64,000 nucleotides of DNA from an uncultured Clostridia bacterium (GTDB taxonomy: Bacteria > Bacillota > Clostridia > TANB77 > CAG-508). The position numbers and the translations under genes were made by a program. The DNA lies in contig CAKPPS010000001.1 in the NCBI GenBank assembly GCA_934177795.1, positions 48,485-112,484 on the forward strand. The letters run 5' to 3'. This document shows, piece by piece, positions 80 to 14,423 of the stretch. Every line of letters starts with the position of its first letter. The stretch's first letter is position 1. The notes beneath the pieces are model-generated. The model was given only the letters and a program-made list of their open reading frames with translations, searched no databases and was not told the origin of the DNA.

Positions 80-1330
80 TTGATACCCCATTCAAAGGAA
101 ATAAATGAGTTTTCTATAGTAAAAGAATTAATGGGAAAATGGATATATTTAAAAGGAGATGAACTTGTTAATTTTAGTGCTTTGCTTGGTTATGGCCATG
201 TACATAGAGGTAATATGTGTTTTGATATAACATGTCTAGTTAGATATTTTCCTGATTTTAATAAAAAAGTGCAAAAGCCTGGTACTTTTAAATCTATAAG
301 TTTTTCTTCATTAGCAATAGATTATTTTATTGGGCATAAAAATGGACTATTAGATAAATCTATAAATATATTATCTAAGTTTAAGAATGATGAAGACAAT
401 GATGATGAAATCGAGGAGCCTAAAAAACATAAATTTATTTATAAAGGAAATGAATATAATTTATACTTTATGACTATAGGAAGATTTGAATTTGAAAAAA
501 GATTTCCGTTTAATATTTTTTCAACATTAAATATTGAAAGTTCTAAGAACATAAATCTTGATGAATTATATGATTTAGTTAATTTGATTAGACTATTTTT
601 ACAATTTATATCAAATAGAAGAGTTATAGACATTGATGAGATATTCATAATGAAAGAAAATGAGAGTTTTGATTTTAATGGAACAGTTAAACTAAATAAT
701 TTTAAATTAATGGAACCAAGCAAATGGAATATAATAACTTATGATTTAATTAAAGATAATTTGAGTAACTTACTACAAGAAATTGCAGACAATAATATTT
801 GCTTTAGATCTTTATTTAATTATGAATCAGATAAAATAAATTCAGTTGATATAATGAATATATGCGCTAGTTTTGAAAGTCAATTTAATAATACATATCC
901 GAATTTCAAAAATAAAGATTTTAAAAAAGTAAAGAAGGAAATTATAGAATATTTAAAAATAATGCCTAATAACTATAATACATCTGAATTAGAAGAAATG
1001 AATAATATTACAAATGGAATAAAAAATTATAATGATACGTTAAAATCAAAGTTACAATATGCGTTAGAAGAATTTATAAAAATTTATGAATCTGGCGGTG
1101 GAAAAGTAAATTTTGATTTTGGTAAAGATTATATTAATATGCCAAATAGATTTAAGAATGCTAGAAATGCATTAGACCATGGTAATGTTAAGTATGAGCT
1201 ATCAAATCAAGAATATTTTGATGTTAATTTAGTTAGAGCTATAATTTATATGATGATTTTGAAAAAAATCAAGTTGTCAGACGAACAGATTAAAATGTGT
1301 ATAAGAAAAATTATAAAAGGAATAGAGTAG
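80..1330 (+). CDS. Hypothetical protein with C-terminal HEPN-like Rx4H motif; candidate ApeA/Abi-type defence RNase (5' end may lie upstream of the window)
   Basis: 416-aa ORF from TTG-80, with the frame open back to nt 2. The C-terminal ...RFKNARNALDHGN... fits HEPN R-x4-H. No other family recognised. Lies in the island left of the tRNA-Leu remnant. Confidence 0.45.
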   Translation: MIPHSKEINEFSIVKELMGKWIYLKGDELVNFSALLGYGHVHRGNMCFDITCLVRYFPDFNKKVQKPGTFKSISFSSLAIDYFIGHKNGLLDKSINILSKFKNDEDNDDEIEEPKKHKFIYKGNEYNLYFMTIGRFEFEKRFPFNIFSTLNIESSKNINLDELYDLVNLIRLFLQFISNRRVIDIDEIFIMKENESFDFNGTVKLNNFKLMEPSKWNIITYDLIKDNLSNLLQEIADNNICFRSLFNYESDKINSVDIMNICASFESQFNNTYPNFKNKDFKKVKKEIIEYLKIMPNNYNTSELEEMNNITNGIKNYNDTLKSKLQYALEEFIKIYESGGGKVNFDFGKDYINMPNRFKNARNALDHGNVKYELSNQEYFDVNLVRAIIYMMILKKIKLSDEQIKMCIRKIIKGIE

Positions 1331-1369
1331 TATTATATAAATGTTTGAAAGTAATTAAAAGAAAAAAAC

Positions 1370-1392
1370 GAGTAGTTCGCTAAGAACTACTC
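1370..1392. terminator. Bidirectional stem-loop between convergent genes
   Basis: gagtagttc-gcta(a)-gaactactc, 9-bp perfect stem between the 80..1330 (+) and 1482..2220 (-) genes. Confidence 0.5.
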
Positions 1393-1481
1393 TTAATCTT
1401 CTTAATGCCGATGTAAAAATCACATGGCTTAATTTAATTAGATTATACTATATAATATGGTTAAAGTCAATAAAAATATAC

Positions 1482-2220
1482 TCATTTTGTAAAAAGTTGA
1501 ATCATTTTTTTATCTAGAAAATCTAAACTAGAATTAGATAAATGTACTCCAGCTAATAAGTCTTTAGATGTTTTAGGATAGTAAATTCGTTGCTTACTAA
1601 TAGTTGTAATTTGATTAAGTAATGCAATACTTCCTTTTTTCATTTTAGTAATTTCAGTTTCAAACTTTTTTAAGAATTCAAGTTCTTGAGATAATATAGG
1701 AAGTTGTTCTAATTCATCTTGTATATCTTCATATTTTTCAATTTTGTTTTTACTAATAGCAGATAACTTATTAAAAGTATCATTAAAATTTTTCTGAAAT
1801 TTATTATATAAAATAGTATAAATTTCTTCTCCTAGATTTACAGTATTGTCATAATATGTTTTATTTTCCTTAATAGAAGTAAGTGGGATTACATTTAATG
1901 TGCCAAATGATGGTTTATCATCTTTATTAAGTACAATGCAATAATGTAATCCACCTAATTCTCCGACCTACATTAAATCCTAAATTGGCTTTTATAATAT
2001 CTCCACGTTTATATCTTTTTAATTTAGTAGAATCAAAAGATTTTTCTTCATCATGATAATTAGCAAAGTCATTAATCCAATAAGCTAAAATATCAGATTT
2101 TTTATATTCTTCTAAATCTATATGTTTTTCAAAACTTTGGTTTAATCGTTTTAAGCATAAATCCTTATGATTTATAGAATTTATTTTTATATTTTCAATA
2201 TCATTATTAGTATTATTCAT
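1482..2220 (-). CDS. PemK/MazF-fold toxin-like protein (~245 aa), readable only with a +1 shift at in-frame CGG (C at 1965); would be called a frameshifted pseudogene under standard rules
   Basis: 0-frame: ...YKRGDIIKANLGFNVG then CGG. The +1 frame continues GELGGLHYCIVLNKDDKPSFGTLNVIPLTS... and stays open to TGA at 1482 (checked codon by codon). The RGDI...G.E.GG...VL pattern resembles the MazF/PemK fold. Confidence 0.5.
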
Positions 2221-2520
2221 AAATTTACCGCCCTTCTAAAAACATTTGTTCTATTATATCATCTATTACGATAAAAGTCTATATTTTTTGAAATATTTTT
2301 TATTTTGCTATAGGCAGTATCTGTTATACTTAAAAATTATATTTTCTAACAAAATTAATTCAAGTTTCTAACACTTTTGAAATTTTTCATAAAACTTAAA
2401 AAACTCAAAAAGTAAATATAGAGTAAGTATTTGCTTTAAAAACACTTACAGCAACAACGATTTTATAAAACACTAAAAATCAATAACAATTAATAAATAA
2501 AGAACTCAAAACTGTACTTA

Positions 2521-2567
2521 GAAACCAGTGCCACGGCGTGGGGGTTCGAGCCCCTTCATCCGCACCA
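2521..2567 (+). other. tRNA-Leu 3'-terminal fragment (variable arm, T-arm, acceptor 3' strand, ACCA); putative att remnant
   Basis: ...gccacggcgtGGGGGTTCGAGCCCCTTCATCCGCACCA closely resembles Firmicute tRNA-Leu 3' ends (cf. ...cgtgggggttcaagtcccctcacccgcacca). No matching 5' acceptor strand (GCGGATG) or D-arm lies upstream. Confidence 0.7.
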
Positions 2568-2607
2568 ATGACGTATTTGTTCAAACTATTAGAACAGATA
2601 ATACCAA

Positions 2608-2642
2608 AATCAATCAGAAAATAAATCGGATTGATTTTTTTC
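2608..2642 (+). terminator. Rho-independent terminator after the tRNA fragment
   Basis: aatcaatc...gattgatt stem followed by a T7 run. Near-duplicate of the terminator at 4565..4597. Confidence 0.6.
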
Positions 2643-2855
2643 TGTTTAAAAACAATATTAAAATCATCCAAAACGAAAGGATGGTGTTAAGATTGAAAAT
2701 AATTAAACAAGAATTACAATTTGAAGAATGTCTAAAGCAGAGACTTGAATTTAATAGTATAAAATTAAAGAAATGAGAATGTCAATTAAAAAAATTTCTT
2801 TAATTTTATAGACATTTAAAAAAATAAATAGTATATTTATAGTATATTATAAAGT

Positions 2856-2966
2856 ATGGAGGAAAAAATATTGGATAAACCAAATAAAGAAATGAAAGAA
2901 GAAATAGAAACATCTCAAGAACAGTCAGCTGTGGTTCAAGATTCTAAAATGAGTTTAGAAGCTTAA
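2856..2966 (+). CDS. Small ORF (36 aa) overlapping the next gene by TAATG
   Basis: ATG-2856 ... TAA-2966 overlaps ATG-2966. Weak RBS. Acidic and Lys-rich, no homology recognised. Confidence 0.25.
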   Translation: MEEKILDKPNKEMKEEIETSQEQSAVVQDSKMSLEA

Positions 2967-4059
2967 TGAATTTAGCTCCAAAGCCAATTGATGAATATAA
3001 TGAAGACAGCAGAATGGACTATTTAGATAGACTATTTTCTGGACTAAAGGATATGGAATTTAAATTTAAGGCAATTGTAAGAAGCTTTAATATGGAAGAA
3101 CAATTGGAAGATAGTTTTAATACTTATTTTGATAGAGCGAAAAAAGAACTTTCTGAATTAGGATATGGTAGTAAAAATGAAAGTCTTCAGAAAATTTATC
3201 AAAAAATATTTGCAGATATGAAACCAGAGTTATTGGAGAAGGCTAAGCAAACTTTTTTGCGGATACACAATGTATGGAGGGCTAGGGGAGACATCTAGTA
3301 TGATAAATGATGTAGAAAGTATAAATGAATTGCTTCATATTACTCATTCATCAATCATAAATGATGATGAACTTCTACAATCTATGCCAGTTTTAGAAAC
3401 TAAAAAAAATTCATTTGGTTATGATATAACTTTATATGGTGAAGAAAATGAAGTTTCAAAAGGAATATTTTTAAATCTTCCTCTTGATTTAGATGTAGGA
3501 TATACTGATATAGTTTCTATGAAAGATCGAACATTAATGATGGTAAGAGATAGAGGGCATGCTTTAACTATAGATATAGATTCTAGTGATAAGGATAATG
3601 TAGATGTTAGATATTTTGTACCTAAAATATGTAATTTAGATATGGTAAAGGCTCTACCAGGAATTAACGAGAGCAGTATTACTCAAAATGGAGCAAGCGG
3701 TTTTTTTGTTTCAACCCAAAAAGATATTTCTGAAAGTATATCTAGTTTTATTGCTAATGTTCCTACTGATATGGATATACCTGAAATCAGAATGAATGAA
3801 ATAAACATAGTAGAAACGTTTGATAAATCAGAAATATTTGGAAATTCACGGAAAAGCAATACAAAAGGAAAACGAAGAACTAATAGATAACAAAAATACA
3901 ACTCCATTTACTATCAATGATGCTAAGAGCTTAGCTACTAGTAGAAAATTTAGTAAAATAAAAGAAATGTTTTCTAAATTTAAAGAATTTATAAAGTCAA
4001 AATCTAGTGTACTAAAATCAAAAGGAGAAGATAAAGAAAACTATGATCAAAGTAGATGA
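2966..4059 (+). CDS. Hypothetical protein (~363 aa) assembled from three ORF-track pieces via two in-frame CGG/+1 sites (C at 3260 and 3849)
   Basis: ...KQTFL-CGG then +1 GGA TAC ACA ATG... joins ORF 2966..3298 to 3270..3890. ...FGNS-CGG then +1 GGA AAA GCA... joins it to 3820..4059. Length 1094 nt = 3n+2. Confidence 0.5.
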
Positions 4060-4522
4060 TATTGCCAAAGAAACTTTAGATATTTTAAAATATTTTAATT
4101 CTGATTTTGTATCTAAAATACCAAATAAATTTTTAGAAAATTTAAAAATGATAGCTGAAACATCTCAAATTGCTGTAAATATAGATAGGGATAAAAAATT
4201 GGAAGAACAAGAAATAACTGAGGATTGTAAAGATTTGATATCTTTAATTTATTATAGTTATGTAGCAAATGAAAATGATAAAAAAGAAATTTTAAAATGT
4301 TGGAATAAAAATGAGCAAAAATATCAAAATGAATTAAATGAAAAATATAATGCTAATGATATTTTTAAAAATATTCACAATAAGGTAAAAACACATACTG
4401 ATATAACTGAAAAAAGTGAACATTCTAATTTGCCTCAGATAGTTGAAAATCATAGCTTTATTAAAAGTATTTGGAAGAAGATAAAAGGATTATTTAATAT
4501 GAATAATAATGAAAAAAACTAA
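4043..4522 (+). CDS. Hypothetical protein (159 aa)
   Basis: ORF overlaps the upstream stop by 17 nt and is followed by a terminator. No family recognised. Confidence 0.55.
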   Translation: MIKVDDIAKETLDILKYFNSDFVSKIPNKFLENLKMIAETSQIAVNIDRDKKLEEQEITEDCKDLISLIYYSYVANENDKKEILKCWNKNEQKYQNELNEKYNANDIFKNIHNKVKTHTDITEKSEHSNLPQIVENHSFIKSIWKKIKGLFNMNNNEKN

Positions 4523-4597: not shown

Positions 4598-4655
4598 GCC
4601 CAAAACAAGATATTAACAAAATTATAAAATATTTATTGTAATTTATTAAAATCAG

Positions 4656-4740
4656 GTTTACTTATTATGTAAAAAGATGTATAATGAATGTAGTAACTAT
4701 TGAATTTTTCATATGGGCATTGCCCAAAAGGAGAAAAATT
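4656..4740 (+). promoter_or_regulatory. Sigma-A-type promoter plus 13-bp palindrome in the leader (copy A of a repeated unit)
   Basis: TTTACT(4657-62)-17 nt-TATAAT(4680-85); palindrome TGGGCAtTGCCCA 4714-4726 abutting RBS AAAGGAG. About 80% identical to the reverse complement of 12572..12660. Confidence 0.6.
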
Positions 4741-5211
4741 ATGAATAATATGAAAGAAACACTCAAAAAAGCAGGTTATAACGTATCAACAAAAAATCAA
4801 GAAGAAGAGAACGTGGTGGAAACACCAGTCTATCGGAAAGTTGATTTTGCATCATTAACAAAAAAAGAACAAAAAAGAATGGTGCATGATGAAACATGGC
4901 GTCTCGAGAACAAGATTCCATACATGTGGGAAGAGTTCGCGATGCGTATCGCACAATACAACTTTCTGAATCCAGAAAATCCGATTACAGACGATTTTCT
5001 GATGAGAGTTGTAAAACAAGGAGAAAAGATGGATATCTGGGGTGATGATGCGTATTACTGTTGCAATCTTCGAACTCATAATAGTGATACAAACTATCGA
5101 AGTTTGGTGGCTTTGATGGGGGAAGAGCTTGTAAAGGAAATGGAGAGCTTCGGCGTAAGCTGGGGATATTATGCTTTAGTATATGATGAAATTGCCAGAA
5201 AAAAATGGTAA
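4741..5211 (+). CDS. Hypothetical cytosolic protein (156 aa), GC-richer than its surroundings
   Basis: ATG-4741 lies 7 nt after GGAG (the ORF-track start at 4684 would include the promoter). Contains an ordinary in-frame CGG codon (4834). Locally elevated GC by eye. Confidence 0.6.
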   Translation: MNNMKETLKKAGYNVSTKNQEEENVVETPVYRKVDFASLTKKEQKRMVHDETWRLENKIPYMWEEFAMRIAQYNFLNPENPITDDFLMRVVKQGEKMDIWGDDAYYCCNLRTHNSDTNYRSLVALMGEELVKEMESFGVSWGYYALVYDEIARKKW

Positions 5212-5239
5212 TTTTAAAGAGCTTAAATTTTTTTCAGAG

Positions 5240-5275
5240 CAAAGAGGTTAGTGAATACTAGCCTCTTTGTTTTGA
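5240..5275 (+). terminator. Rho-independent terminator
   Basis: caaagaggtta...tagcctctttg stem followed by TTTT. Confidence 0.6.
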
Positions 5276-5571
5276 AAAATTTACTAAAAAATAATAGATA
5301 GGAAAATAATAAAATTAATACATAGTATTGAAAGAATAATCATTTACTTTTGAAAGTTATTGTAAATGTTGAAAATGTAATATTTGATAAAATTATTCTA
5401 AACAAAAATAAAAAAGTATTGTCAAAAAAAATCGTTTATGGTAAGATTTTATTAAATCATACTTTTATATCATATGAAAGAGGAGGTGGAAAATAAAGTA
5501 TATTCACCTATTGCAGATTTTGGTGGGTGAATTATTTCTTGTTGTTATGAGTAATTTATAAGGAGGACAAA

Positions 5572-6066
5572 ATGACACAGTTAACAAATGAAATGATAAT
5601 CCAAAGTCTTAACAAAAATTTTGTTTTTATGAGATTAGATTTTATATTATCGGCAATAATTTTACTAGTCTTTGGAATCATATATTTTTTGAAAGGAAGA
5701 AGAGAACAAAATTCTAGAAGAAAAAAAGGCATAATAATAGGTGTGATTTTTATTGCATTTTTAATGGGAGTTCCAGCATTTAAAAATTCTCTAAAATATA
5801 GTGCAATACAATCTTCGATAAAAAATAACTGCTTTGAAGTAGTAATTGATACTGTAGCAAGAACTGATTTTACTACAGCTGATGGAGATACAACCTACTA
5901 TGTTTATCTAACCAATAATGGAAAAATGCCTGTTAGCCAAAATACATATTATCATATTTCTTCTGGAGATTCAGTATATGTTGTAATTGCAAAAGGTAGA
6001 TTTGGAGGAAAATATCCAACAGGACAACTTTATTTAACAAGTGAATACCAATATGTTAATAACTAA
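5572..6066 (+). CDS. Membrane protein, unknown function (164 aa, two predicted TM helices)
   Basis: RBS AAGGAGG 7 nt upstream. Hydrophobic stretches LDFILSAIILLVFGIIYFL and GIIIGVIFIAFLMGV. Confidence 0.6.
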   Translation: MTQLTNEMIIQSLNKNFVFMRLDFILSAIILLVFGIIYFLKGRREQNSRRKKGIIIGVIFIAFLMGVPAFKNSLKYSAIQSSIKNNCFEVVIDTVARTDFTTADGDTTYYVYLTNNGKMPVSQNTYYHISSGDSVYVVIAKGRFGGKYPTGQLYLTSEYQYVNN

Positions 6067-6111
6067 AAAAGAAGGAGGGAAAACCTTCCTTTCTTTTTTA
6101 ATTTGAATATA

Positions 6112-6651
6112 TTACAAATCAATTGTTATATTTTGTTTTGTATTTTCATTAATTTGAAATAAATATTCTTCATTAAATCCAAATAGCATTGCTATAAGAT
6201 TATAAGGAACAACATGAATTTTTGTATTATATTTTGTTACATCATTGTTATATAATCTTCTAGCAGCTTGTAACTGACTTTCTATTTTAGACAAATTCTT
6301 TTGAAGTTCTAAAAATTGCTCACTTGCTTTTAAATTAGGATAAATTTCAGCTACAGCTAATATTTTATTAATTTGATTATTTAATTCTTCACTAACTTTT
6401 AGGTCTTTTGTTTCATTATATTGAGTTCTCAATTTTATTATTTTTTCAAAAGTTTCTTTTTCATAATTCATATAACCTTTTACAGTGTTTACTAGATTAG
6501 GTATTAAATCAAATCTTTGTTGTAAGTAAACATCTATACAGCTTTTTGATTGTTTTATTTTTATTTTTAATTTAGTTAAACTATTATATTGAACAACTAT
6601 TAATATTATTAAAACAAATAAAATAATTATTCCTATAATTGGTAATGACAT
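6112..6651 (-). CDS. lemA: LemA family protein
   Basis: N-terminal TM helix, then ...YNSL..L...I..S.S.IDV.LQ.R.DLIPNLV..VKGY..YE...F..I...R... typical of LemA. Confidence 0.8.
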   Translation of the reverse strand: MSLPIIGIIILFVLIILIVVQYNSLTKLKIKIKQSKSCIDVYLQQRFDLIPNLVNTVKGYMNYEKETFEKIIKLRTQYNETKDLKVSEELNNQINKILAVAEIYPNLKASEQFLELQKNLSKIESQLQAARRLYNNDVTKYNTKIHVVPYNLIAMLFGFNEEYLFQINENTKQNITIDL

Positions 6652-6664
6652 AATAGTATTCCTC

Positions 6665-7654
6665 CTAATTATTGTATTCTGTATCTTTTATAAGTTGAAT
6701 CAATTTATCTGTTAATGTAAATGTAAAATCTAGCATTCTATAATATTTATATAATGTTGATTTATCTAAAGAAGATTTCATAACATTAGCAGTTTCAAAC
6801 ATTTCTCCTGACATAAATCTTATATATATTAGACTATTTTTTATGGTTAGCTCATATTCCATATTCATTTCTTTTTGAAATTCAATCAATAATTGCATTA
6901 TATCTGCTGTTAATAATTGCATTGCAATTATTTTGTCGGAACAATATACATCAAATATTTTTTCAAATTCTTGTGAATCTAGTTCAACTCTTAGTTTATC
7001 AAAAGGAAGTTTAGAACTAAAAGTTCTAGCTAATATATTTTTGTCTTTTCTATCTTTTCTTAAATATAGACTTGCGTTGAAAGGCTTAGGTGTTTCAACT
7101 TTTGACAGAATCCCACAAAATAATGTATGATATTGTATATTACCATTCTTATCGGTAGTTTCATATTCAGTTAAAACTTCTGACATTGAAAAATTGCAAT
7201 TGTTTTTTAATATACCTTGCATTAAGTCTTCCGAACTATATCTATCATATTTTTCAAATTCAGCATCAATGTATGAAGATGAACTTATTCCTTTGCAAGG
7301 ATAGTAATTAATGTTTTCTTCAAAAGAGTCTAATAAGGCTTTTACAACTTTTGTTTTAAAATCATTTTTATATTGAGTTATTTTAGAGTTTTGGCCTTTT
7401 GGCGTTGCTTTTATATAAATAAGAAAAGCAATAACGATATAGATAAATATTATAAAATTAGCAATTTCATCATTAGGATAAAATGTTTTATATAAAAAAG
7501 AGTGTAATACAAATCCGATGATAATTAATATAATTATTATAGTTATATTTCGTATAGTTTCATTTTTTGCTTTAAATCTTGAAATTTCTAAATCTTCAAA
7601 ATTATTTTCGACGATTTTAGAATAAATTTGTTCAAATTTTTCATTACTATTCAT
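6665..7654 (-). CDS. DUF3137-like membrane protein (common LemA partner)
   Basis: 329 aa with two central-N TM helices, immediately upstream of lemA in the same operon. This pairing is typical for DUF3137. Confidence 0.5.
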   Translation of the reverse strand: MNSNEKFEQIYSKIVENNFEDLEISRFKAKNETIRNITIIIILIIIGFVLHSFLYKTFYPNDEIANFIIFIYIVIAFLIYIKATPKGQNSKITQYKNDFKTKVVKALLDSFEENINYYPCKGISSSSYIDAEFEKYDRYSSEDLMQGILKNNCNFSMSEVLTEYETTDKNGNIQYHTLFCGILSKVETPKPFNASLYLRKDRKDKNILARTFSSKLPFDKLRVELDSQEFEKIFDVYCSDKIIAMQLLTADIMQLLIEFQKEMNMEYELTIKNSLIYIRFMSGEMFETANVMKSSLDKSTLYKYYRMLDFTFTLTDKLIQLIKDTEYNN

Positions 7655-7727
7655 TTTTTTACCTCAAATTACTTTTTTATTCTATTATAACATATATTGA
7701 AAATATTAGAGTGATTTTTTATAAAAT

Positions 7728-8552
7728 TTATATTTTATAATTTTTTTCTATAGGTAACCACCATTCTGTATGATTTTTATAATAAACCTCTATTTCTGGA
7801 ATATTTTTTATGTTATATCCAGAATAAGGTATCCAATTTTTGTAAACATAGAAACTTAGATTAGACATAGCTTCACCACTAATTTCTTTTACATTAAAAA
7901 TAGCCCATGTTGATTTTGGAATAGTAAATTTGGTACTATTAAAAAAACATTTTTGTGAAGCTATATGATATTTAGCTGTTTGAGGACTAGGAAAAAAATT
8001 ATCATATTCAATAATTCCAAAAGTGGTATCAGTAAAAAGTTCTATATAATCATTATTAGATTCTAAATTTTTCCAAAACTTAGGAGCAATGACTTTAATG
8101 TCTGGTAGTTTACATTCTTTTGAAATAGTATAGAAATGCAGTTCATCTTTTTTTTGTATCTTAAAATCAAGTTCAATATTATTAGAGGTGTTATTAGTAA
8201 AAGTGAATGGAGCAAAATTTTTTAGGTATTTAGAATTTTGTTTTACTTCACTTGGCTTTATACCATGAAATTTTTTGAATGCTCTTGAAAATGAAATAGG
8301 AGAATCATAGCCATATTTTAAACTTAAATCTATTATTTTAATTTTAGAGTTTATAAGTTCAAGGCCAGCCATACTCAATTTTCTATTTCTAATATATTCA
8401 GTAAGAGAAATTCCAGTTATAAAGTTAAAAATTCTATATAAAGAATATTCATTAACGCATAAAATCTGACAAATTTTTTCTATTGATATTTCATAAGTTA
8501 AATTGTCTTCTATATATTTAATTACTTCATTTAATCTATCGAAATTATTCAT
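7728..8552 (-). CDS. AraC-family transcriptional regulator with C-terminal GyrI-like effector-binding domain
   Basis: N-terminal double HTH (...YSLYRIFNFITGISLTEYIRNRKLSMA...YDSPISFSRAFKKFHGIKPSE) plus a ~150-aa C-terminal domain, as in the Rob/BmrR-type architecture. Confidence 0.75.
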   Translation of the reverse strand: MNNFDRLNEVIKYIEDNLTYEISIEKICQILCVNEYSLYRIFNFITGISLTEYIRNRKLSMAGLELINSKIKIIDLSLKYGYDSPISFSRAFKKFHGIKPSEVKQNSKYLKNFAPFTFTNNTSNNIELDFKIQKKDELHFYTISKECKLPDIKVIAPKFWKNLESNNDYIELFTDTTFGIIEYDNFFPSPQTAKYHIASQKCFFNSTKFTIPKSTWAIFNVKEISGEAMSNLSFYVYKNWIPYSGYNIKNIPEIEVYYKNHTEWWLPIEKNYKI

Positions 8553-8673
8553 ACTTTTATACTCCGTAAAAAATTTATACTAATTATAACATAAAACTAA
8601 CTTTAATGATATCGAAAAAGTTAAGAAATTTACTTACAAAAATGTATAATTAATTTGTGGAGGGATATTGTAA

Positions 8674-9324
8674 ATGGAATTTTCAGAAGTTATTAAAAAC
8701 AGACTAACAACATTAAATTATACAAGCAAAAAAATAAGCGAGGAAAATATGAACCAAATTATAGAAAGTGCAATAATTGCACCATCAGCTAAAAATAGAC
8801 AGCCATGGAGGTTTTATATATTAACAGATGAACAAAAAAATTATATTGCAGATAAAATGGAAAATTGGATAAATAATACAGGTTTGGTAACGACAATAAA
8901 AAGAAGTGCAAATTTAATAAAAAAAGTAGGAAATTGTATTTTGATTTATAGTGATAAATGGGATTCAAATAATGTTGATAAAATTAAAAATCCTCAAAAG
9001 TTGTTAAATGGTGAAGATATTGAAAATATGGTAATAATGCATGATTACTATTTTGACAGAATTAAAGCAGATACATTATCTGTTGGAGCAGCAGTAGAGC
9101 ATATTGTCTTAAAAGCAACTGAATTAGGAATAGATACAACTTGGCTTTGTGATGTTTTATTTATAGATGATGTTATAAATGAATATTTAGGATTAAAAGA
9201 TAAGGAATTAATGTGTGGAGTTGCATTAGGATATAGAAATAAAGCAAACCTAAAAAAAGGAAGATATAAAAAAGAATTTTTAATAATAGGGGAAGAAAAT
9301 GAAAGAAAAAAACTTTGTAAATAG
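8674..9324 (+). CDS. Nitroreductase-family flavoprotein
   Basis: ...APSAKNRQPWRFYILTDE... signature. 216 aa, divergent from the AraC gene. Confidence 0.75.
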   Translation: MEFSEVIKNRLTTLNYTSKKISEENMNQIIESAIIAPSAKNRQPWRFYILTDEQKNYIADKMENWINNTGLVTTIKRSANLIKKVGNCILIYSDKWDSNNVDKIKNPQKLLNGEDIENMVIMHDYYFDRIKADTLSVGAAVEHIVLKATELGIDTTWLCDVLFIDDVINEYLGLKDKELMCGVALGYRNKANLKKGRYKKEFLIIGEENERKKLCK

Positions 9325-10492
9325 TATAAAAGTTAATTTACCTAATTCAGAAGAAAAAGAAGTTTTAAGGAAAATAGCTGGATTTGATAAAAAGCTTCAA
9401 CATAAAACATATAAAAATGTGAAAAAACATGATGAGTTAATAGTTCATATTAGAGAAAATATATATGGTAATAGAAAAGTAATACAGGCGCAGTTTAAAA
9501 CATTGGGATGTAGAATGAAAAAGGCTGGTTCCTGTTGGAATTGTAATTATGGAGTTAGTGATAAATGTTTGATTACGCCACAACAATATATAAAAGCATT
9601 TAAAAGAGGTTTAGAAAATATAGATGGAGATGTATTAGTATTAGAATCATTAGGAAGTATAACAGATCCCAAAGAATTTGATGATAATGTATTTAAAGAA
9701 ATAATAAGAACTTCAATAGAAAATGAAAAATTTAAACATATATTAATAGAAACACATTTAAGTCAAATTTCTGAAGAAATTGTACAGTATATAGCCAAAA
9801 TAAACAATGGAAGAAAACAAATTGGATTTGAAATAGGTATTGAAGATATGAATCCTGAAAATAGAAAATTAATAAATAAAATTGGAGTTCAAAATAATAA
9901 ATTAACTGAGGTTTATAATATGCTACAAAAATATGGGGTAAGTTTAGGAATAAATTTAATTTATGGATTTCCATTTATGAATGAACAAGAAAGGATAGAA
10001 GCTGTTGTAAAATCAGTAAAAAATATTAATAGGGACTTACCAGAAGCGGAAATAGTTTTATTTTTGATGAGTGTTAAGGAAAATACTATTATGGAATATA
10101 TGCAAAAAAATGGAATGTATAAGCCAGCAAACCCATGGGGATTAGTAGAAACAACAAAAGAAATTTTGGAAGATGAGAATATTCAAAATTTAATTACTTT
10201 TTCATGGTTTGGAGAAAAGGAAGATCCGTATATTCACGAACAAACTTGTTATACTTGTACACAGTGTAAATCATTAATAATAGATTTTTTTAGAAAAGTA
10301 AATGGAACATTTAATCGAAAGGAAAGAAAAAAATTGTTAGAAAATTTATTAAAAAAAGCTGAAAATTTAGAATGTGGGTGTTATAATAAATTTCAAGAAA
10401 AACTTAAAGAAAGTGACGGTAAAAACCCTAAAATTAGATATGAAGAATTTATTGGAAAGGTAAATAAATTAATAGATAATGAAAGAGAATAA
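9299..10492 (+). CDS. Radical-SAM-type enzyme with CX7CX2C motif (TIGR01210-like)
   Basis: ...LGCRMKKAGSCWNCNYG... cluster motif and TIM-barrel-like core (LESLGS...ETH...G.E). 397 aa. Confidence 0.6.
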   Translation: MKEKNFVNSIKVNLPNSEEKEVLRKIAGFDKKLQHKTYKNVKKHDELIVHIRENIYGNRKVIQAQFKTLGCRMKKAGSCWNCNYGVSDKCLITPQQYIKAFKRGLENIDGDVLVLESLGSITDPKEFDDNVFKEIIRTSIENEKFKHILIETHLSQISEEIVQYIAKINNGRKQIGFEIGIEDMNPENRKLINKIGVQNNKLTEVYNMLQKYGVSLGINLIYGFPFMNEQERIEAVVKSVKNINRDLPEAEIVLFLMSVKENTIMEYMQKNGMYKPANPWGLVETTKEILEDENIQNLITFSWFGEKEDPYIHEQTCYTCTQCKSLIIDFFRKVNGTFNRKERKKLLENLLKKAENLECGCYNKFQEKLKESDGKNPKIRYEEFIGKVNKLIDNERE

Positions 10493-11469
10493 TTTTTTAA
10501 ATAAAGATTTAATACGGATGGCATATTAAAGAAAAAAGAAAACAGGGTTTTACAAATAAAAAGTATAGTACATTTTTTGATGGAAAAGTATTACAAATAT
10601 GTTTCTATAGTAAAGGTTGTAAATATAGTAAATGTGGTAATTGTATAATGTGTGATTATGGAAAAACAAGAAAAAAGAATTTAAAACCAAAAGATATTAA
10701 AAAAATTTTAAATAAAGTATTTAATAGTATGAAAAAATTTCCCGAAGTGTTGCTGATAAATAGTTTGGGAAGTATTTTTGATACTGAAGAAATGCCAATA
10801 GAAAATATAAATATTTTACTAGATGAATTGTCTAATATCAATATAGATGTGATTGTATTTGAAACACATTATTTAACTATAAATGATTCAATACTTCAAT
10901 TAATAAAACAAAAATTGTATAATAAAGATGTGGTAATAGAACTTGGACTAGAAAGCAGTAACGAGAAAAAAAGAAAAAAATGTTTAAATAAACATATAAA
11001 CAATAAAAATTTTATCAATAAAGTTAAATTAATAAAGTTATATGGTTTTGAAGTGGAAGTAAATGTTATTTTTGGTATGCCTTTTTGTACAGTTAAAGAA
11101 CAAGAAATAGACACTATAAACAGTATAAATTGGTGTTTTAAAAATAATATTGATAAAGTAAATTTATTTCCTATTAATATAAAACCATATACTTTACTAT
11201 ATAAGCTATATGAACAGAGAAAGTATTTTCCAATTTCACATAGAGATTTTATTGAAGTATTACATAAAATTTCTAAAGAATATATTAACAAAATTTATCT
11301 GTGCTGGTATGGTAATAGAGAAATAATATATGATAAAAATAAAACAATTTTTCCAAAGTGTAATGATAGTGAATATCAAATATTTATGAAATTTTACAGA
11401 GAATTTAATATGACTAGAAATGCAGAAAAAAGAATGAAGTTATTAAAACAAGTAAAGTTCAAAATATGA
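10479..11469 (+). CDS. Second radical-SAM paralogue (CX7CX2C), readable only with a +1 shift at in-frame CGG (C at 10515)
   Basis: ATG-10479 MKENNFLNKDLI-CGG, then +1 GGA TGG CAT... gives GWHIKEKRKQGFTNKKYSTFFDGKVLQICFYSKGCKYSKCGNCIMCDYG. The N-terminus MKENNF parallels MKEKNF of the upstream paralogue. The ORF-track start at 10648 would delete the Cys motif. Confidence 0.55.
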
Positions 11470-11534
11470 ATTTATGTTTTGAGATGATTATTATATATAT
11501 TTGTGAAAATGGAGGCCTGTAGCATTGATTACAA

Positions 11535-11858
11535 TTATATTATATTTTTTATATATTTTAATATTATAAAAAATATAATATTAAAAAATAAGCATACTAG
11601 TGTTTCTAAGTATTCTTTTGATAAATCAAATTTAAATAATTTTAGAACAAGTGATAAAATTAATCCTATAAGGCAGAATACAAGTAAATTACTATATTTA
11701 AAATTTTGATGTACACAAGTCTTTAATATAACTTTTGCAAGAAATATTGAAGCTATAATAAATAGCATATAAAATAAATATCCATATAATCCCAACTCAA
11801 ATATACCTCCAAGTAATATACTGAAAACTTGCGGTTTGTGTTTGATTGACCTTCGCAT
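11535..11858 (-). CDS. Small membrane protein (107 aa, 3 TM)
   Basis: Strong RBS (GAGGAGG) 5-6 nt upstream of ATG-11858. Hydrophobic throughout. Confidence 0.55.
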   Translation of the reverse strand: MRRSIKHKPQVFSILLGGIFELGLYGYLFYMLFIIASIFLAKVILKTCVHQNFKYSNLLVFCLIGLILSLVLKLFKFDLSKEYLETLVCLFFNIIFFIILKYIKNII

Positions 11859-11943
11859 GAAAAGTCCTCCTCGTTAAAAATAAATTAATATATATAAATT
11901 ATAACATAAACAATAAAAAAATATATTTAATTTGGAGATAAAT

Positions 11944-12075
11944 ATGGTTTGAGTATTATATGTAGTTGCAGGAGTATTTCTTGCAATGATGGCAAAAACA
12001 GCAGTTAAAGTTGCAACTGAATCAATTGGAGATTATGGAGTAGACTTCTTAATAGATAAAAGATTTGAAATATAA
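11944..12075 (+). CDS. Possible small membrane peptide with an in-frame TGA at codon 3
   Basis: GGAG 6 nt upstream of ATG-11944. Reads ATG GTT TGA GTA TTA... = MV*VLYVVAGVFLAMMAKTAVKVATESIGDYGVDFLIDKRFEI, followed by a strong hairpin. Confidence 0.3.
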
Positions 12076-12111
12076 GATTTACAAATAAATTATTTATGAA
12101 ATTAAAAAAAT

Positions 12112-12151
12112 AACTAACCAGATGCAAGAATTTACTTGCACCTGGTTAGTT
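12112..12151. terminator. Bidirectional terminator hairpin
   Basis: aactaaccagatgcaag...cttgcacctggttagtt, 16/17-bp stem between convergent genes. Confidence 0.7.
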
Positions 12152-12163
12152 GGGAGGAAAATT

Positions 12164-12571
12164 CTATAAAGAATTTTCTACTTGAAATTTAAAAAATTTA
12201 GTATATGTTTGAGAAATGACATTATACAGTTCAGTCATTGTCTCTGTTGATGGATTTTCTTCATACGCTTGTTTTGCTTCCATATATTTTTTCATATCTT
12301 CAGTTTGAAGAAAATCGGCTGCGTTTTCTTTTACACTTTGCTCTAAATCAGCAGACATTTCTTTCATGTCTGTATCAGAGTACTGTAAAACTACGGCAGG
12401 TTTTGTCAGTATTATAAAGTTTTCATTGTCAGCTAGCTGATGTATTGAGTATATTCCTCCTAAAATGAAAGAATTTACCAATAATAATACTAATCCAAAA
12501 AATTTTACAGCCCGTATGATATCTTCTTTGCTTACAGTGTTTTCTTTTTTCATAGTGTCTTCGTTATTCAT
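12164..12571 (-). CDS. Membrane-anchored hypothetical protein (135 aa), GC-richer
   Basis: One TM helix (FFGLVLLLVNSFILGGIYSI). Contains an ordinary in-frame CGG codon (12514..12512). Driven by copy B of the repeated promoter unit. Confidence 0.6.
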   Translation of the reverse strand: MNNEDTMKKENTVSKEDIIRAVKFFGLVLLLVNSFILGGIYSIHQLADNENFIILTKPAVVLQYSDTDMKEMSADLEQSVKENAADFLQTEDMKKYMEAKQAYEENPSTETMTELYNVISQTYTKFFKFQVENSL

Positions 12572-12660
12572 AGTTTTTCCTCCTTTTGGGCACTGCCCAT
12601 AAAAAAATAATAAAATAGTAACATATATCCATTATACCATTTTTTACATAATAAGTAAAC
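12572..12660 (-). promoter_or_regulatory. Sigma-A-type promoter plus 13-bp palindrome (copy B, inverted relative to copy A)
   Basis: On the minus strand: TTTACT(12659-54)-17 nt-TATAAT(12636-31); palindrome TGGGCAgTGCCCA (12587-12599); RBS AAAGGAGG. Confidence 0.6.
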
Positions 12661-12741
12661 TACTTTTCGATTTTTTAAAAAAGTTATATTAAAGAGCGAA
12701 AAACACTTGAATTATAGCTGTTTTTATGATAAAATATTAAC

Positions 12742-13000
12742 TGCATAAATAAATAAAACCAAATAGAAAGCAAAGTATATATATTACAAGTTTAAAAGAG
12801 AAAATGGTCATTGGCTGGAAACCATTAAATAGAGAGTATATAGAAATTTCACTTTTTAGGTTCTTTTTTGAATAAAGTAGAAGAAGACGGTTGAACCGTT
12901 AAAACTATAATGAGGTTAGCTATATGCTAATAAACTTAGGTGGTACCACGAATAATAACCATTTCGTCCTAAAAATATATAGGGAGAAGTGGCTTTTTTT
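12742..13000 (+). promoter_or_regulatory. T-box leader (Phe specifier) of the pheST operon
   Basis: Promoter TTGAAT(12707)-17-TAAAAT(12730). AGAGA-like box. Specifier candidate TTC-A at 12848-51. T-box core aacttaGGTGGTACCACGaa at 12933-50. Terminator aaccatttcgtcct/agggagaagtggctt plus T7. Confidence 0.75.
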
Positions 13001-13056: not shown

Positions 13057-13386
13057 ATGGTTGATGAAGGAAAATGTATTGAATATTATTTTGATTCAAA
13101 AACTTTTACAAAGGAAGAATTAATAAAAAATATAGAAGAAGCTCAAATAGAGTTTCCAAATAAAAAAATCGAACCAGAATTGTTTTTAAATCAATGGGGA
13201 GTATATATATTAAAAATTAATTTTAAAGACAAAATAAAATATATGACAGAAATAAAAAGAAAAAGAACAGACAAAAAGGTGAAAAATTTAATTCAAAAAA
13301 ATCAAAAGGTTAGTAAAAAAAGAATGTCTTTATTTAATAGAGAATATGGAAAATATAAAAATTCTGGAGAATACAAACCGATATAA
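13057..13386 (+). CDS. Small basic hypothetical protein between the T-box and pheS
   Basis: 109-aa ORF whose stop overlaps the pheS ATG (TAATG). Weak RBS. No family recognised. Confidence 0.35.
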
Positions 13387-14423
13387 TGAAAGGAATAAAA
13401 AAGATGAAAGAACAAATAGCACAAATCAAAGAAAAGTCAGTTAAAGAGATTAAAGAAAGCCAAAATCTAAAAGAATTGAATGAGGTTAAAGTAAAATATT
13501 TAGGTAAAAAAGGTGAGTTAACAGCTATACTAAGAGGAATGAAAGATTTAACACCAGAGGAAAGACCAGTAGTAGGAAGTTTAGTAAATGAAGTTAGAAC
13601 TGATATAGAAGAATTAATAAAAAAAATGGAAGAAGAATTTAAAAAAAGAGAATTAATAAATAAATTGCAACAAGAAGATATAGATGTAACTGCACCAAGC
13701 AAAAAAATTAGCTTAGGGTCTATACATCCAATAACACAGATAATAGAAGAAGTAGAAGAAATTTTTCTTGGAATGGGATATAAAATTGCAGATGGACCAG
13801 AAGTGGAAAAATCAATATATAATTTCGATAAATTAAATACACCACCAGATCATCCAGCTAGAGATTTACAAGATACTTTTTATATAACTGAAGACATAGT
13901 ATTAAGAAGTCAGACTTCACCTGTTCAAGCTAGAGTTATGGAAAATCAAAAACCACCTATAAAAATAATATGTCCAGGAACAGTCTATAGATCAGATAGT
14001 GTAGATGCAACACATTCACCAGTATTTCATCAAGTTGAAGGACTAGTTGTAGATAAAAATATTTCTATGGCAGATTTAAAAGGAACTCTAGAAATGTTTG
14101 CTAAAAAATGCTTAGGAGAAAATACGAAAATAAGATTTAGACCACATCATTTTCCATTCACAGAGCCATCAGCAGAAGCGGATGTTTCATGCTTTGTATG
14201 TGGAGGAAAAGGCTGCAGAGTATGCAAAGGTGAAGGATGGATAGAGTTATTAGGTTGTGGAGAAGTACATCCTAATGTTTTGAAAAATTGCGGAATAGAT
14301 TCAGATATATATTCAGGATTTGCTTTTGGATTCGGTGTAGAGAGAATAGCAATGGCTAAATATGGAATAGATGATATGAGATTATTATTTGAAAATGATA
14401 TAAGATTTTTAAAACAATTTTAA
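13386..14423 (+). CDS. pheS: Phenylalanine--tRNA ligase alpha subunit
   Basis: Class II aaRS motifs (...HPARD.QDTFY..., [27 protein letters not shown]). The start may instead be ATG-13404. Confidence 0.95.

What the first reader, a model, noticed from the sequence alone, without database searches (positions are those of the whole stretch)
4656..12660. Two inward-facing copies of one ~90-bp promoter/palindrome unit bracket an 8-kb accessory block and drive GC-richer orphan genes
4656-4745 (+) and 12566-12660 (-) align from the -35 to the start codon. The first 20 nt (gtttacttattatgtaaaaa) are identical, and both have TTTACT-17-TATAAT, a 13-bp palindrome TGGGCA-N-TGCCCA abutting the RBS, and ATGAATAA. 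The two downstream proteins (156 aa cytosolic; 135 aa single-TM) are unrelated to each other. They look GC-richer than the host, and they are the only genes in the window that use CGG as a plain sense codon. The arrangement could be a small regulon under one palindrome-binding repressor (or a leader RNA hairpin occluding the RBS). It could also be the inverted termini of an acquired element enclosing LemA/DUF3137, AraC, nitroreductase and two rSAM genes.
Basis: seen in the sequence. Interest (0 to 1): 0.65.

Follow-up and report, generated by a model that had tools for sequence, protein, structure and literature searches.

The report
Duplicated promoter-leader on two acquired genes
Two unrelated, foreign-looking small genes in this gut Clostridia genome carry diverged copies of one promoter-plus-leader module, whose promoter belongs to a previously undescribed class with a fixed spacer that heads many small stand-alone gene cassettes in related bacteria; the two copies are not the ends of a mobile element.

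Summary
The two units are real: 84% identical over about 95 nt, with the 13-bp palindrome and the 20-mer found nowhere else in the window. They are paralogous copies of a sigma-A promoter plus 5' leader. Each heads a single-gene cassette that ends in its own terminator and has unusual base composition (protA, protB).

The promoter belongs to a fixed-spacer class, TT[G/T]ACTT[T/A]TTATGTAAAA-N3-[G/T]G-TATAAT. I found it at 39 loci in uncultured gut Clostridia. There it precedes unrelated, mostly small genes that are GC3-richer than their neighbours and often end in a terminator. Homologues of protA keep this promoter type. Three leaders carry a GC hairpin next to the ribosome-binding site, each with a different sequence. 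That favours an RNA structure over a repressor operator.

The 8 kb between the units is not a mobile element. There is no target duplication and no recombinase, the inner genes have host-like composition, and the strain-specific breakpoint lies at 11960, not at a unit.

The claim that only these two genes use CGG is wrong.

Side finding: in other strains an IS1202-family insertion sequence sits 17-18 bp upstream of the -35 box of each unit. Across 18 independent sites it does the same at promoters in general. This supports both units being promoters.

The parts
4639..4655 (+). 17 bp directly upstream of the -35 box of unit A. In strain contig L083 an IS1202-family IS ends exactly here.
4657..4685 (+). 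Promoter of unit A: -35 TTTACT (4657-4662), 17-bp spacer carrying TTATGTAAA in the class register, -10 TATAAT (4680-4685).
4686..4740 (+). 5' leader of protA (inferred; transcription start not mapped), with hairpin and GGAG ribosome-binding site (4730-4733).
4714..4726 (+). Palindrome/hairpin TGGGCATTGCCCA. The core is a 5-bp GC stem with a 3-nt loop, about -7 kcal/mol. It abuts AAAAGGAG.
4741..5211 (+). protA, 156 aa, soluble and all-alpha. It belongs to a small uncharacterised family (7 representatives among 1.84 billion proteins). GC3 is 0.354.
5241..5274 (+). Intrinsic terminator of protA (AAAGAGGTTAG...CTAGCCTCTTTGTTTT). The homologous cassettes in L087 and L153 have similar terminators.
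11960..12075 (+). Remnant of the 3' end of a PfkB-like kinase gene. The gene continues beyond this point in strain contig L082. Homology with L082 stops at 11960, which marks a strain-specific breakpoint inside the 'block'.
12112..12151 (-). Intrinsic terminator of protB (17-bp stem followed by a T-run).
12164..12571 (-). protB, 135 aa, with an N-terminal membrane helix followed by a helical bundle. Known only from this species (variants at 100% and 67% identity). GC3 is 0.23.
12572..12630 (-). 5' leader of protB (inferred), with hairpin TGGGCAGTGCCCA (12587-12599) and GGAGG (12579-12583).
12631..12659 (-). Promoter of unit B: -35 TTTACT (12659-12654), spacer with TTATGTAAA, TGG-TATAAT (extended -10; 12636-12631).
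12660..12676 (-). 17 bp directly upstream of TTTACT of unit B. In strain contig L085 this stretch is duplicated on both sides of the inserted IS (AAAAAATCGAAAAGTAG).
12753..12974 (+). T-box leader of the pheS-pheT operon, divergent from unit B. Synteny with relatives starts here and runs rightwards.

Best explanation
The two units are diverged paralogous copies of one expression module: a sigma-A-type promoter, a leader of about 55 nt with a short GC hairpin just 5' of a strong ribosome-binding site, and the first three codons. Each heads a stand-alone single-gene cassette (promoter, leader, small ORF, intrinsic terminator) whose coding part has foreign-looking composition.

The promoter part belongs to a fixed-spacer class, TT[G/T]ACTT[T/A]TTATGTAAAA-N3-[G/T]G-TATAAT. 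The class occurs about once per 200 kb in related uncultured gut Clostridia. It typically heads small, GC3-richer, terminator-closed genes of unrelated sequence, resembling phage 'morons'.

Inferred, not shown:
- The invariant spacer motif TTATGTAAA, which sits in a fixed register, is a binding site for a regulator encoded elsewhere. ProtA and protB would then be co-regulated with other cassettes of this kind.
- The hairpin acts at the RNA level, as an mRNA 5' stabiliser or as an insulator of the ribosome-binding site. It is not a sequence-specific operator.

The 8 kb between the units is ordinary variable chromosome, not an element bounded by the units.
For: Paralogy of the units.

Cassette structure. 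Both genes have their own promoter and terminator and atypical GC3.

ProtA homologues at 31-58% identity sit in unrelated contexts: an element with a serine recombinase and a lysin, a site next to the gpr spore protease gene, and a sortase/HipA region. Most keep the promoter type:
- L087 TTGACTTTTTATGTAAAATATGGTATAAT;
- L086 TTGACTTTTATGTAAA...;
- L153 TTTACAATATTATGTAAATGTGATACAAT;
- L159 TTGATTTTTTATGTAAAGTATGGTAAAAT;
- L158 carries the reverse complement, TTTACATAAA.
The terminators of L087 and L153 are similar too.

The promoter class. A pattern search found 39 loci, all in uncultured Clostridia MAGs. All are preceded by TT[G/T], which the pattern did not require. Conservation stops sharply at the -35 and -10 boxes. 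In an unbiased 1.18 Mb from relatives plus the window, 7 of 36 TTATGTAAA copies lie in the exact promoter register, against 0-1 for six control 9-mers. Generic -35/-10 sites show no such spacer.

Properties of class members:
- a perfect GC hairpin ending 7-28 nt before the start codon in 12 of 40, against 24 of 889 control genes (odds ratio 15, p=4e-9), all with different sequences;
- a terminator within 120 nt of the stop in 17 of 35, against 8.8% of controls (p=4e-9);
- GC3 above the locus mean in 27 of 29, median z 2.0;
- diverse downstream genes among ordinary chromosomal neighbours.

Both units behave as promoters. An IS that inserts 17-18 bp upstream of -35 boxes (13 of 18 independent flanks) sits at that position next to unit A in L083 and next to unit B in L085.

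The block is not an element.
Against: No transcription data exist, so the transcription starts and leaders are inferred.

The class was collected with a pattern that fixes most of the spacer, so its true variability is under-sampled. Some of the 39 loci are orthologous (for example L100/L127 and L101/L126), which inflates the counts.

No candidate regulator recurs next to class promoters. The conserved spacer might simply make a very strong sigma-A promoter.

Only 3 of the 7 protA-family leaders and 30% of class leaders have the hairpin, so it is common but not obligatory. Its function was not tested.

Only 64 kb of this genome is available, so the number of copies of the full 95-nt unit is unknown.
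Confidence: 0.6

Rival explanations
1. The 13-bp palindrome is the DNA operator of a dimeric repressor, possibly the AraC/GyrI-like protein at 7728-8552. That repressor would block transcription of both genes as a two-member regulon.
For: The palindrome is perfect and is conserved in both units while the flanking leader has diverged. It occurs only at these two sites in 64 kb. A regulator gene lies between the units.
Against: Homologous and class-related leaders have palindromes of unrelated sequence at the same position. That is what selection on structure produces, not selection on sequence. The L083 variant TGTCCA breaks the DNA symmetry but keeps a G-U pair. With a 1-nt centre, the half-sites are unusually close together. 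AraC-type proteins normally bind direct or longer repeats (general knowledge). The motif is absent from 80 related pheS loci and from the GTDB species representatives.
Confidence: 0.12
2. The hairpin nucleates a longer helix in which the upstream U-run pairs with AAAAGGAG. This would occlude the ribosome-binding site, as in a fourU-type thermometer or another translational switch.
For: The minimum-free-energy folds of both leaders extend the GC stem with U:A and U:G pairs onto the ribosome-binding site, at -9.5 and -9.6 kcal/mol.
Against: The z-scores are only about -1.7, and U-runs and A-runs are everywhere in a 26% GC genome. Other class leaders with hairpins (L087, L100, L102, L110) have no pyrimidine run placed to pair with the ribosome-binding site.
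Confidence: 0.12
3. The units are the inverted termini of an acquired or invertible 8-kb element carrying LemA/DUF3137, AraC, nitroreductase and radical-SAM genes.
For: The units are the longest inverted repeat in the region and they face inwards. The whole region is absent from the pheS neighbourhoods of relatives.
Against: The evidence against this reading:
- The bases flanking the units do not form a direct repeat.
- The block holds no transposase or recombinase.
- The inner genes have host-like GC3 of 0.08-0.15; only protA and protB deviate.
- The genes to the left of unit A (80-4522) are equally non-syntenic.
- Strain L082 diverges from the window at 11960, inside the block.
- No hybrid A/B units were seen in four strain contigs.
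- The repeat consists of a promoter, leader, ribosome-binding site and start codon.
Confidence: 0.04
4. There is no dedicated regulator. The fixed spacer is a near-optimal constitutive sigma-A promoter (T-tract after the -35 box, A-tract, TRTG -16 motif). It would be kept because cassettes that arrive by horizontal transfer must bring a strong self-sufficient promoter. The similarity of A and B would be plain duplication.
For: The consensus contains perfect or near-perfect -35, 17-bp spacing, TRTG and TATAAT. Cassette-like genes need their own signals. No regulator gene recurs nearby.
Against: Sigma-70-type factors do not normally read the central spacer bases ATGT, yet these are invariant and register-locked. 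Generic strong promoter-like sites in the same genomes lack the motif. The motif is not found in front of ribosomal or other highly expressed housekeeping genes in the window. L158 carries the motif flipped, which suggests a symmetric binding site.
Confidence: 0.25

Closest known systems
Phage 'morons': autonomous promoter-gene-terminator units inserted between conserved genes (Hendrix and colleagues; from general knowledge)
   Same: Both are single genes with their own promoter and terminator and with nucleotide composition unlike their neighbours. Homologous cassettes turn up in unrelated genomic contexts, including a recombinase/lysin-bearing element (L087).
   Different: In the window the cassettes lie in a chromosomal variable region with no phage genes. 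Many cassettes with unrelated ORFs share one nearly invariant 29-bp promoter, which is not a described property of morons.
Promoter propagation or duplicated regulatory modules in bacteria (homologous promoters in front of non-homologous genes)
   Same: The same promoter-leader sequence is found upstream of two unrelated genes in one genome.
   Different: Here the copy extends through the ribosome-binding site and three codons. The promoter core recurs across many species with no conserved flanks, so simple copying of a DNA segment does not explain the class.
5' stem-loop and strong ribosome-binding-site mRNA stabilisers in Firmicutes (aprE and ermC leaders, cryIIIA STAB-SD, SP82 polypurine stabiliser; from general knowledge)
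   Same: A small stable hairpin and/or a strong AAAGGAGG element lies in the leader directly before the coding region.
   Different: The hairpin here is about 30 nt from the inferred 5' end rather than at the end. No decay data exist.
preQ1-II riboswitch (Rfam RF01054)
   Same: Both have a hairpin immediately 5' of AAAGGAGAAA-ATG. Both units give weak hits to the model.
   Different: The scores are 23.5 and 18.3 bits against a gathering threshold of 47. The alignment runs into the promoter, no pseudoknot partners are present, and the downstream genes are not queT-like.
TnGBS / ISLre2 / ISKra4 elements, which insert 15-17 bp upstream of sigma-A promoters (PMC3942029). This comparison concerns the IS seen next to the units in other strains.
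   Same: Insertion occurs at a fixed short distance upstream of the -35 box of many different promoters.
   Different: The IS here encodes an ISNCY_2/IS1202-family transposase with an rve-type DDE domain, has TGT...ACA ends and makes 17-18-bp duplications. It is not a Mutator-like transposase. The two IS1202-family surveys held in the library report no target for the long-duplication subgroups (PMC10132070; bioRxiv 10.1101/2022.12.17.520857).

Membership tests
Sigma-A (sigma-70-type) promoter | -35-like and -10-like hexamers 16-18 bp apart | tested here: met
   TTTACT-17-TATAAT in both units. Unit B also has TGn before the -10 box.
Sigma-A (sigma-70-type) promoter | Functions as a promoter in vivo (mapped transcription start) | not testable with these tools
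   Only indirect support is available. A promoter-targeting IS sits 17-18 bp upstream of both units in other strains.
Fixed-spacer promoter class TT[G/T]ACTT[T/A]TTATGTAAAA-N3-[G/T]G-TATAAT (defined here) | TTATGTAAA starting 8 nt after the first base of the -35 box, with the -10 box at +23 | tested here: met
   Both units are in register. They differ from the 29-mer consensus at 6 positions (A) and 3 positions (B).
Moron-like autonomous cassette | Own promoter and own intrinsic terminator around a single ORF | tested here: met
   The same holds for 17 of 35 class members.
Moron-like autonomous cassette | Composition unlike the surrounding genes | tested here: met
   GC3 is 0.354 and 0.23 against a window mean of 0.136. 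The class median z is 2.0.
Moron-like autonomous cassette | Located within a prophage between conserved phage genes | tested here: not met
   There are no phage genes around either cassette in the window. Only the L087 homologue lies in a recombinase/lysin context.
Transposon or IR-bounded mobile element | Target-site duplication outside the terminal repeats | tested here: not met
   The flanks ...AAAATCAG (left of unit A) and TACTTTTC... (right of unit B) do not match.
Transposon or IR-bounded mobile element | Encodes a transposase or recombinase | tested here: not met
   Pfam finds LemA, DUF3137, AraC/GyrI, nitroreductase and two radical-SAM proteins, with no recombinase.
Transposon or IR-bounded mobile element | Presence/absence polymorphism with junctions at the repeats | tested here: inconclusive
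   No complete strain genome is available. The short strain contigs show a breakpoint at 11960 and IS insertions outside the units, none at the unit edges.
dif/Xer site (dif module boundary) | Two 11-bp arms separated by a 6-bp spacer | tested here: not met
   TTATGTAAAAA resembles a XerD arm. However, the left half GGTTTACTTAT overlaps it with no spacer, and the 11 bp that would be the XerC arm do not end in ATAA (read; consensus sites from PMC10132070).
preQ1-II riboswitch RF01054 | Score at or above the Rfam gathering threshold | tested here: not met
   23.5 and 18.3 bits against 47.
Repressor operator | Palindrome sequence conserved among co-regulated or homologous promoters | tested here: not met
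   The sequence is the same only in the two paralogous units. Homologous leaders carry different palindromes.
IS1202 family, long-duplication (ISTde1-like) subgroup. This test concerns the IS in L083 and L085, not a window feature. | About 1.5 kb, TGT...ACA ends, IS1202/ISNCY-type DDE transposase, 15-17-bp duplication | tested here: met
   The IS is 1538 bp with TGT...ACA ends. It matches NF033594 at E=2e-121. Duplications are 17-18 bp. Placement in the ISTde1 subgroup by phylogeny was not tested.

The most novel reading that the evidence does not exclude
The 29-bp fixed-spacer promoter combines a promoter with an operator and defines a clade-wide regulon in uncultured low-GC gut Clostridia. 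A single regulator encoded elsewhere (by the host or by a mobile element) reads TTATGTAAA in the spacer. It thereby controls a floating pool of horizontally exchanged single-gene cassettes: toxSAS-like RelA_SpoT proteins, holins and many orphan proteins with new folds, such as protA. ProtA and protB are two members of this pool in this genome.
Probability: 0.3. Interest if true: 0.7.

Novelty: new variant of a known kind. Interest (0 to 1): 0.5.

Why it matters
By itself the pair is an ordinary case of two genes sharing a duplicated promoter-leader. It matters for three reasons.

First, it exposes a promoter class whose spacer is conserved base for base across species and in front of unrelated genes. 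That points to an undescribed regulatory site, and it gives a simple sequence handle for finding recently acquired single-gene cassettes in a poorly known group of gut bacteria.

Second, the cassette proteins include confidently folded families with no known structural relatives.

Third, the strain comparison shows an abundant IS1202-family insertion sequence landing 17-18 bp upstream of -35 boxes. That would give a target to an IS subgroup for which the published surveys found none.

Tried and rejected
1. Hairpin plus ribosome-binding-site pattern in the GTDB species genomes: one hit (L001), inside a GC-rich coding region, so a chance match.

2. Unit-specific promoter pattern: no hit in the species genomes, and one metagenome contig, which is the same locus in another strain.

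3. BLAST of both units against 80 pheS neighbourhoods of relatives: nothing.

4. Riboswitch: Rfam at gathering thresholds finds only the pheS T-box. The weak preQ1-II hits are rejected.

5. dif/Xer site idea, prompted by TTATGTAAA and by the IS1202-family IS: rejected because there is no spacer and no XerC arm. The IS turned out to target promoters in general, not the 20-mer.

6. Function of protA and protB:
- no Pfam, PHROG or PADLOC family at meaningful E-values;
- no relatives in phage or plasmid records, in IMG/VR or in the species genomes;
- the AlphaFold model of protA is confident (pLDDT 87) but has no PDB or BFVD analogue.

7. Literature search for the 29-mer or parts of it: no paper.

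8. The IS is not in the window or in the other loci.


Full report
OBSERVATION. The sequence is as described. Region 4656-4745 (+) and region 12566-12660 (-) align with 84% column identity and three small indels. The first 20 nt, GTTTACTTATTATGTAAAAA, are identical and occur only at these two places in 64 kb, even when 3 mismatches are allowed. TGGGCANTGCCCA occurs only twice, against 0.03 expected. Both units carry TTTACT-17-TATAAT, then AAAAGGAG(G) and ATGAATAA. Together they form the longest inverted repeat in the first 20 kb. The downstream proteins share no similarity.

ProtA has the highest GC3 of the 68 ORFs in the window: 0.354 against a mean of 0.136 (sd 0.045). ProtB, at 0.23, lies about 2 sd above the mean. 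The CGG statement is wrong, because six other ORFs also carry one CGG each.

ORGANISM AND SYNTENY. PheS (13386-14423) is at most 87% identical to proteins of uncultured gut Clostridia MAGs, with Clostridium sp. CAG:343 at 83%. The species itself is not among the GTDB representatives. Gene order matches the relatives from the pheS T-box (12753-12974) rightwards. Nothing to the left of 12.7 kb matches, and that includes the genes to the left of unit A. In the closest long contig (L007) a different 107-aa gene sits divergent from the T-box. The space upstream of the pheS leader is therefore a variable slot, and the non-syntenic region is not bounded by unit A.

OTHER STRAINS. Four short contigs come from the same species.
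- L084 equals the window from 11708 to 12768.
- L082 has unit B nearly unchanged in front of a protB that is 67% identical. It diverges from the window at 11960, where it continues with a PfkB-like kinase gene of which the window keeps only a remnant.
- L083 has unit A with protA (94% identical) and the palindrome variant TGGGCATTGTCCA, which keeps a G-U pair.
- L085 has unit B with the same protB variant as L082.

There are no hybrid units, and no breakpoint coincides with a unit edge. The block holds no recombinase, its genes have host-like GC3, and the outer flanks do not form a target duplication. The 'termini of an acquired element' reading is therefore not supported.

THE protA FAMILY KEEPS THE MODULE. 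ProtA is nearly an orphan. It has one cluster among 5.8 billion proteins by word search and seven representatives among 1.84 billion by full HMMER. It has no relative in the GTDB species genomes, IMG/VR, phage records or plasmid records. Its AlphaFold model is confident (pLDDT 87) and all-alpha, with no PDB or BFVD analogue.

The homologues lie in unrelated contexts: an element with a large serine recombinase and a lysin, a site next to the gpr spore protease gene, and a sortase/HipA region. Their upstream regions nevertheless show the same promoter type:
- L087 TTGACTTTTTATGTAAAATATGGTATAAT;
- L086 TTGACTTTTATGTAAA...;
- L153 TTTACAATATTATGTAAATGTGATACAAT;
- L159 TTGATTTTTTATGTAAAGTATGGTAAAAT;
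- L158 carries the reverse complement, TTTACATAAA.

Three leaders (the window, L086 and L087) carry a GC hairpin next to the ribosome-binding site, each with a different sequence: TGGGCATTGCCCA, CCCTATAGGG and TGCCAAATGGCA. The terminators of the window, L087 and L153 are also alike. The cassette is thus inherited from promoter to terminator as one unit.

A PROMOTER CLASS. Searching ACTTWTTATGTAAAANNNKGTATAAT found 39 loci in the GTDB species genomes, all in uncultured Clostridia MAGs, and one IMG/VR contig. All are preceded by TT[G/T], which the pattern did not require. Conservation ends abruptly outside the 29 bp.

In an unbiased 1.18 Mb (pheS loci of relatives plus the window), 7 of 36 copies of TTATGTAAA lie in the exact promoter register. 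Six control 9-mers gave 0-1. Generic TTKACW-N17-TATAAT sites show no such spacer. Matches with up to 5 mismatches occur about once per 200 kb.

The downstream genes are diverse: four RelA_SpoT proteins, a CarD-IspD-IspF operon, a Dp-1-type holin, a radical-SAM protein and many small orphans. The neighbours are ordinary chromosomal genes.

Compared with control genes, class members more often have three properties:
- a perfect GC hairpin ending 7-28 nt before the start codon, in 12 of 40 against 24 of 889 (odds ratio 15, p=4e-9);
- an intrinsic terminator within 120 nt of the stop, in 17 of 35 against 8.8% (p=4e-9);
- GC3 above the locus mean, in 27 of 29, with median z 2.0.

Some loci are orthologous, so the effective numbers are somewhat lower. 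No paper in the library contains the 29-mer or parts of it.

MECHANISM. Shown: the units are paralogous promoter-leader modules on two stand-alone cassettes, and the promoter belongs to a register-locked class.

Inferred: sigma-70-type factors do not read the middle of the spacer, yet it is invariant, and it occurs flipped in L158. The spacer motif is therefore most likely the site of a regulator encoded elsewhere. A rival view is that it is merely an optimal constitutive promoter.

The hairpin keeps its position and its pairing but not its sequence. That argues for an RNA (or structural) role, such as protection against 5' decay or insulation of the ribosome-binding site, rather than a repressor operator. 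Folding gives a core of -7 kcal/mol and a possible extension onto the ribosome-binding site (-9.5 kcal/mol, z about -1.7). This extension is weak and is not seen in other class leaders. Weak preQ1-II hits (23.5 and 18.3 bits against a threshold of 47) run into the promoter and are rejected.

SIDE FINDING. In L085 a 1538-bp IS sits directly upstream of unit B. It has TGT...ACA ends and an ISNCY_2/IS1202-family transposase (E=2e-121). It is flanked by a 17-bp duplication that ends at TTTACT. In L083 the same IS (99.7% identical) ends 17 nt before GTTTACT of unit A, in the opposite orientation.

I first suspected that the IS targets the shared 20-mer. Twenty further insertions of close relatives (L133-L152) show otherwise. 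In 13 of 18 unique flanks on the transposase-proximal (left) end there is a strict -35/17/-10 promoter at offset 17 or 18, three more flanks are near misses, and the duplications are 17-18 bp. The IS therefore lands just upstream of -35 boxes in general. This is independent support that both units are promoters.

This target choice is published for the Mutator-like TnGBS, ISLre2 and ISKra4 elements (PMC3942029). The two IS1202-family surveys found no target for the long-duplication subgroups (PMC10132070 and bioRxiv 10.1101/2022.12.17.520857).

VERDICT. The pair itself is ordinary. The promoter class and cassette architecture it reveals, and the promoter-seeking IS seen beside it in other strains, are the parts worth following up.

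Noticed in passing
L085:122-1659; L083:1-365; L133-L152 (not in the window; targets correspond to window 4639-4655 and 12660-12676): An abundant 1538-bp IS inserts 17-18 bp upstream of the -35 box of sigma-A-type promoters. It has an ISNCY_2/IS1202-family transposase of 419 aa (more than 3,900 close relatives in metagenomes), TGT...ACA ends and an outward-facing TTGACA at the tip of its right end. It makes 17-18-bp duplications. A strict promoter lies at that offset in 13 of 18 independent flanks. The two IS1202-family surveys in the library report no target for this subgroup.
   Followed up: partly
window 11960-12075 (+): Truncated 3' remnant of a PfkB-like kinase gene with an internal deletion. 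The gene continues in strain contig L082, and homology with L082 stops at 11960. This marks a strain-specific rearrangement inside the 'block'.
   Followed up: partly
window 13057-13386 (+): A 109-aa ORF with no Pfam family lies between the T-box leader and pheS. It is conserved in 37 of the 80 related pheS loci (up to 74% identity), so it is probably a real gene co-transcribed with pheST.
   Followed up: no
window 80-1330 (+) and 1927-4522: A protein with an Apea-like HEPN domain is followed by several orphan ORFs, three of which carry the rare CGG codon. The region to the left of unit A looks like a defence or accessory islet and is as non-syntenic as the block itself.
   Followed up: no
window 8674-11469 (+): A nitroreductase gene overlaps a 397-aa radical-SAM gene. 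After a 155-bp gap comes a second, weaker radical-SAM-like ORF (273 aa, below the Pfam cut-off). An AraC/GyrI-like regulator lies divergent from them. This may be a small modification or peptide-maturation cluster. It was not analysed.
   Followed up: no
window, all ORFs: Arginine is encoded almost only by AGA. CGG appears 8 times in 68 ORFs, and CGC once.
   Followed up: partly
L100, L101, L126, L127 (and next to the IS in L133, L134, L139): RelA_SpoT-domain proteins of about 330 aa, resembling small alarmone synthetase toxins, are recurrent cargo of the fixed-spacer promoter. Each has a GC hairpin just before the ribosome-binding site.
   Followed up: no
L158:~400-440: In one protA homologue the spacer motif appears as its reverse complement (TTTACATAAA) in the same register. 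This hints that the site is read as a near-palindrome, TTTAYRTAAA.
   Followed up: no
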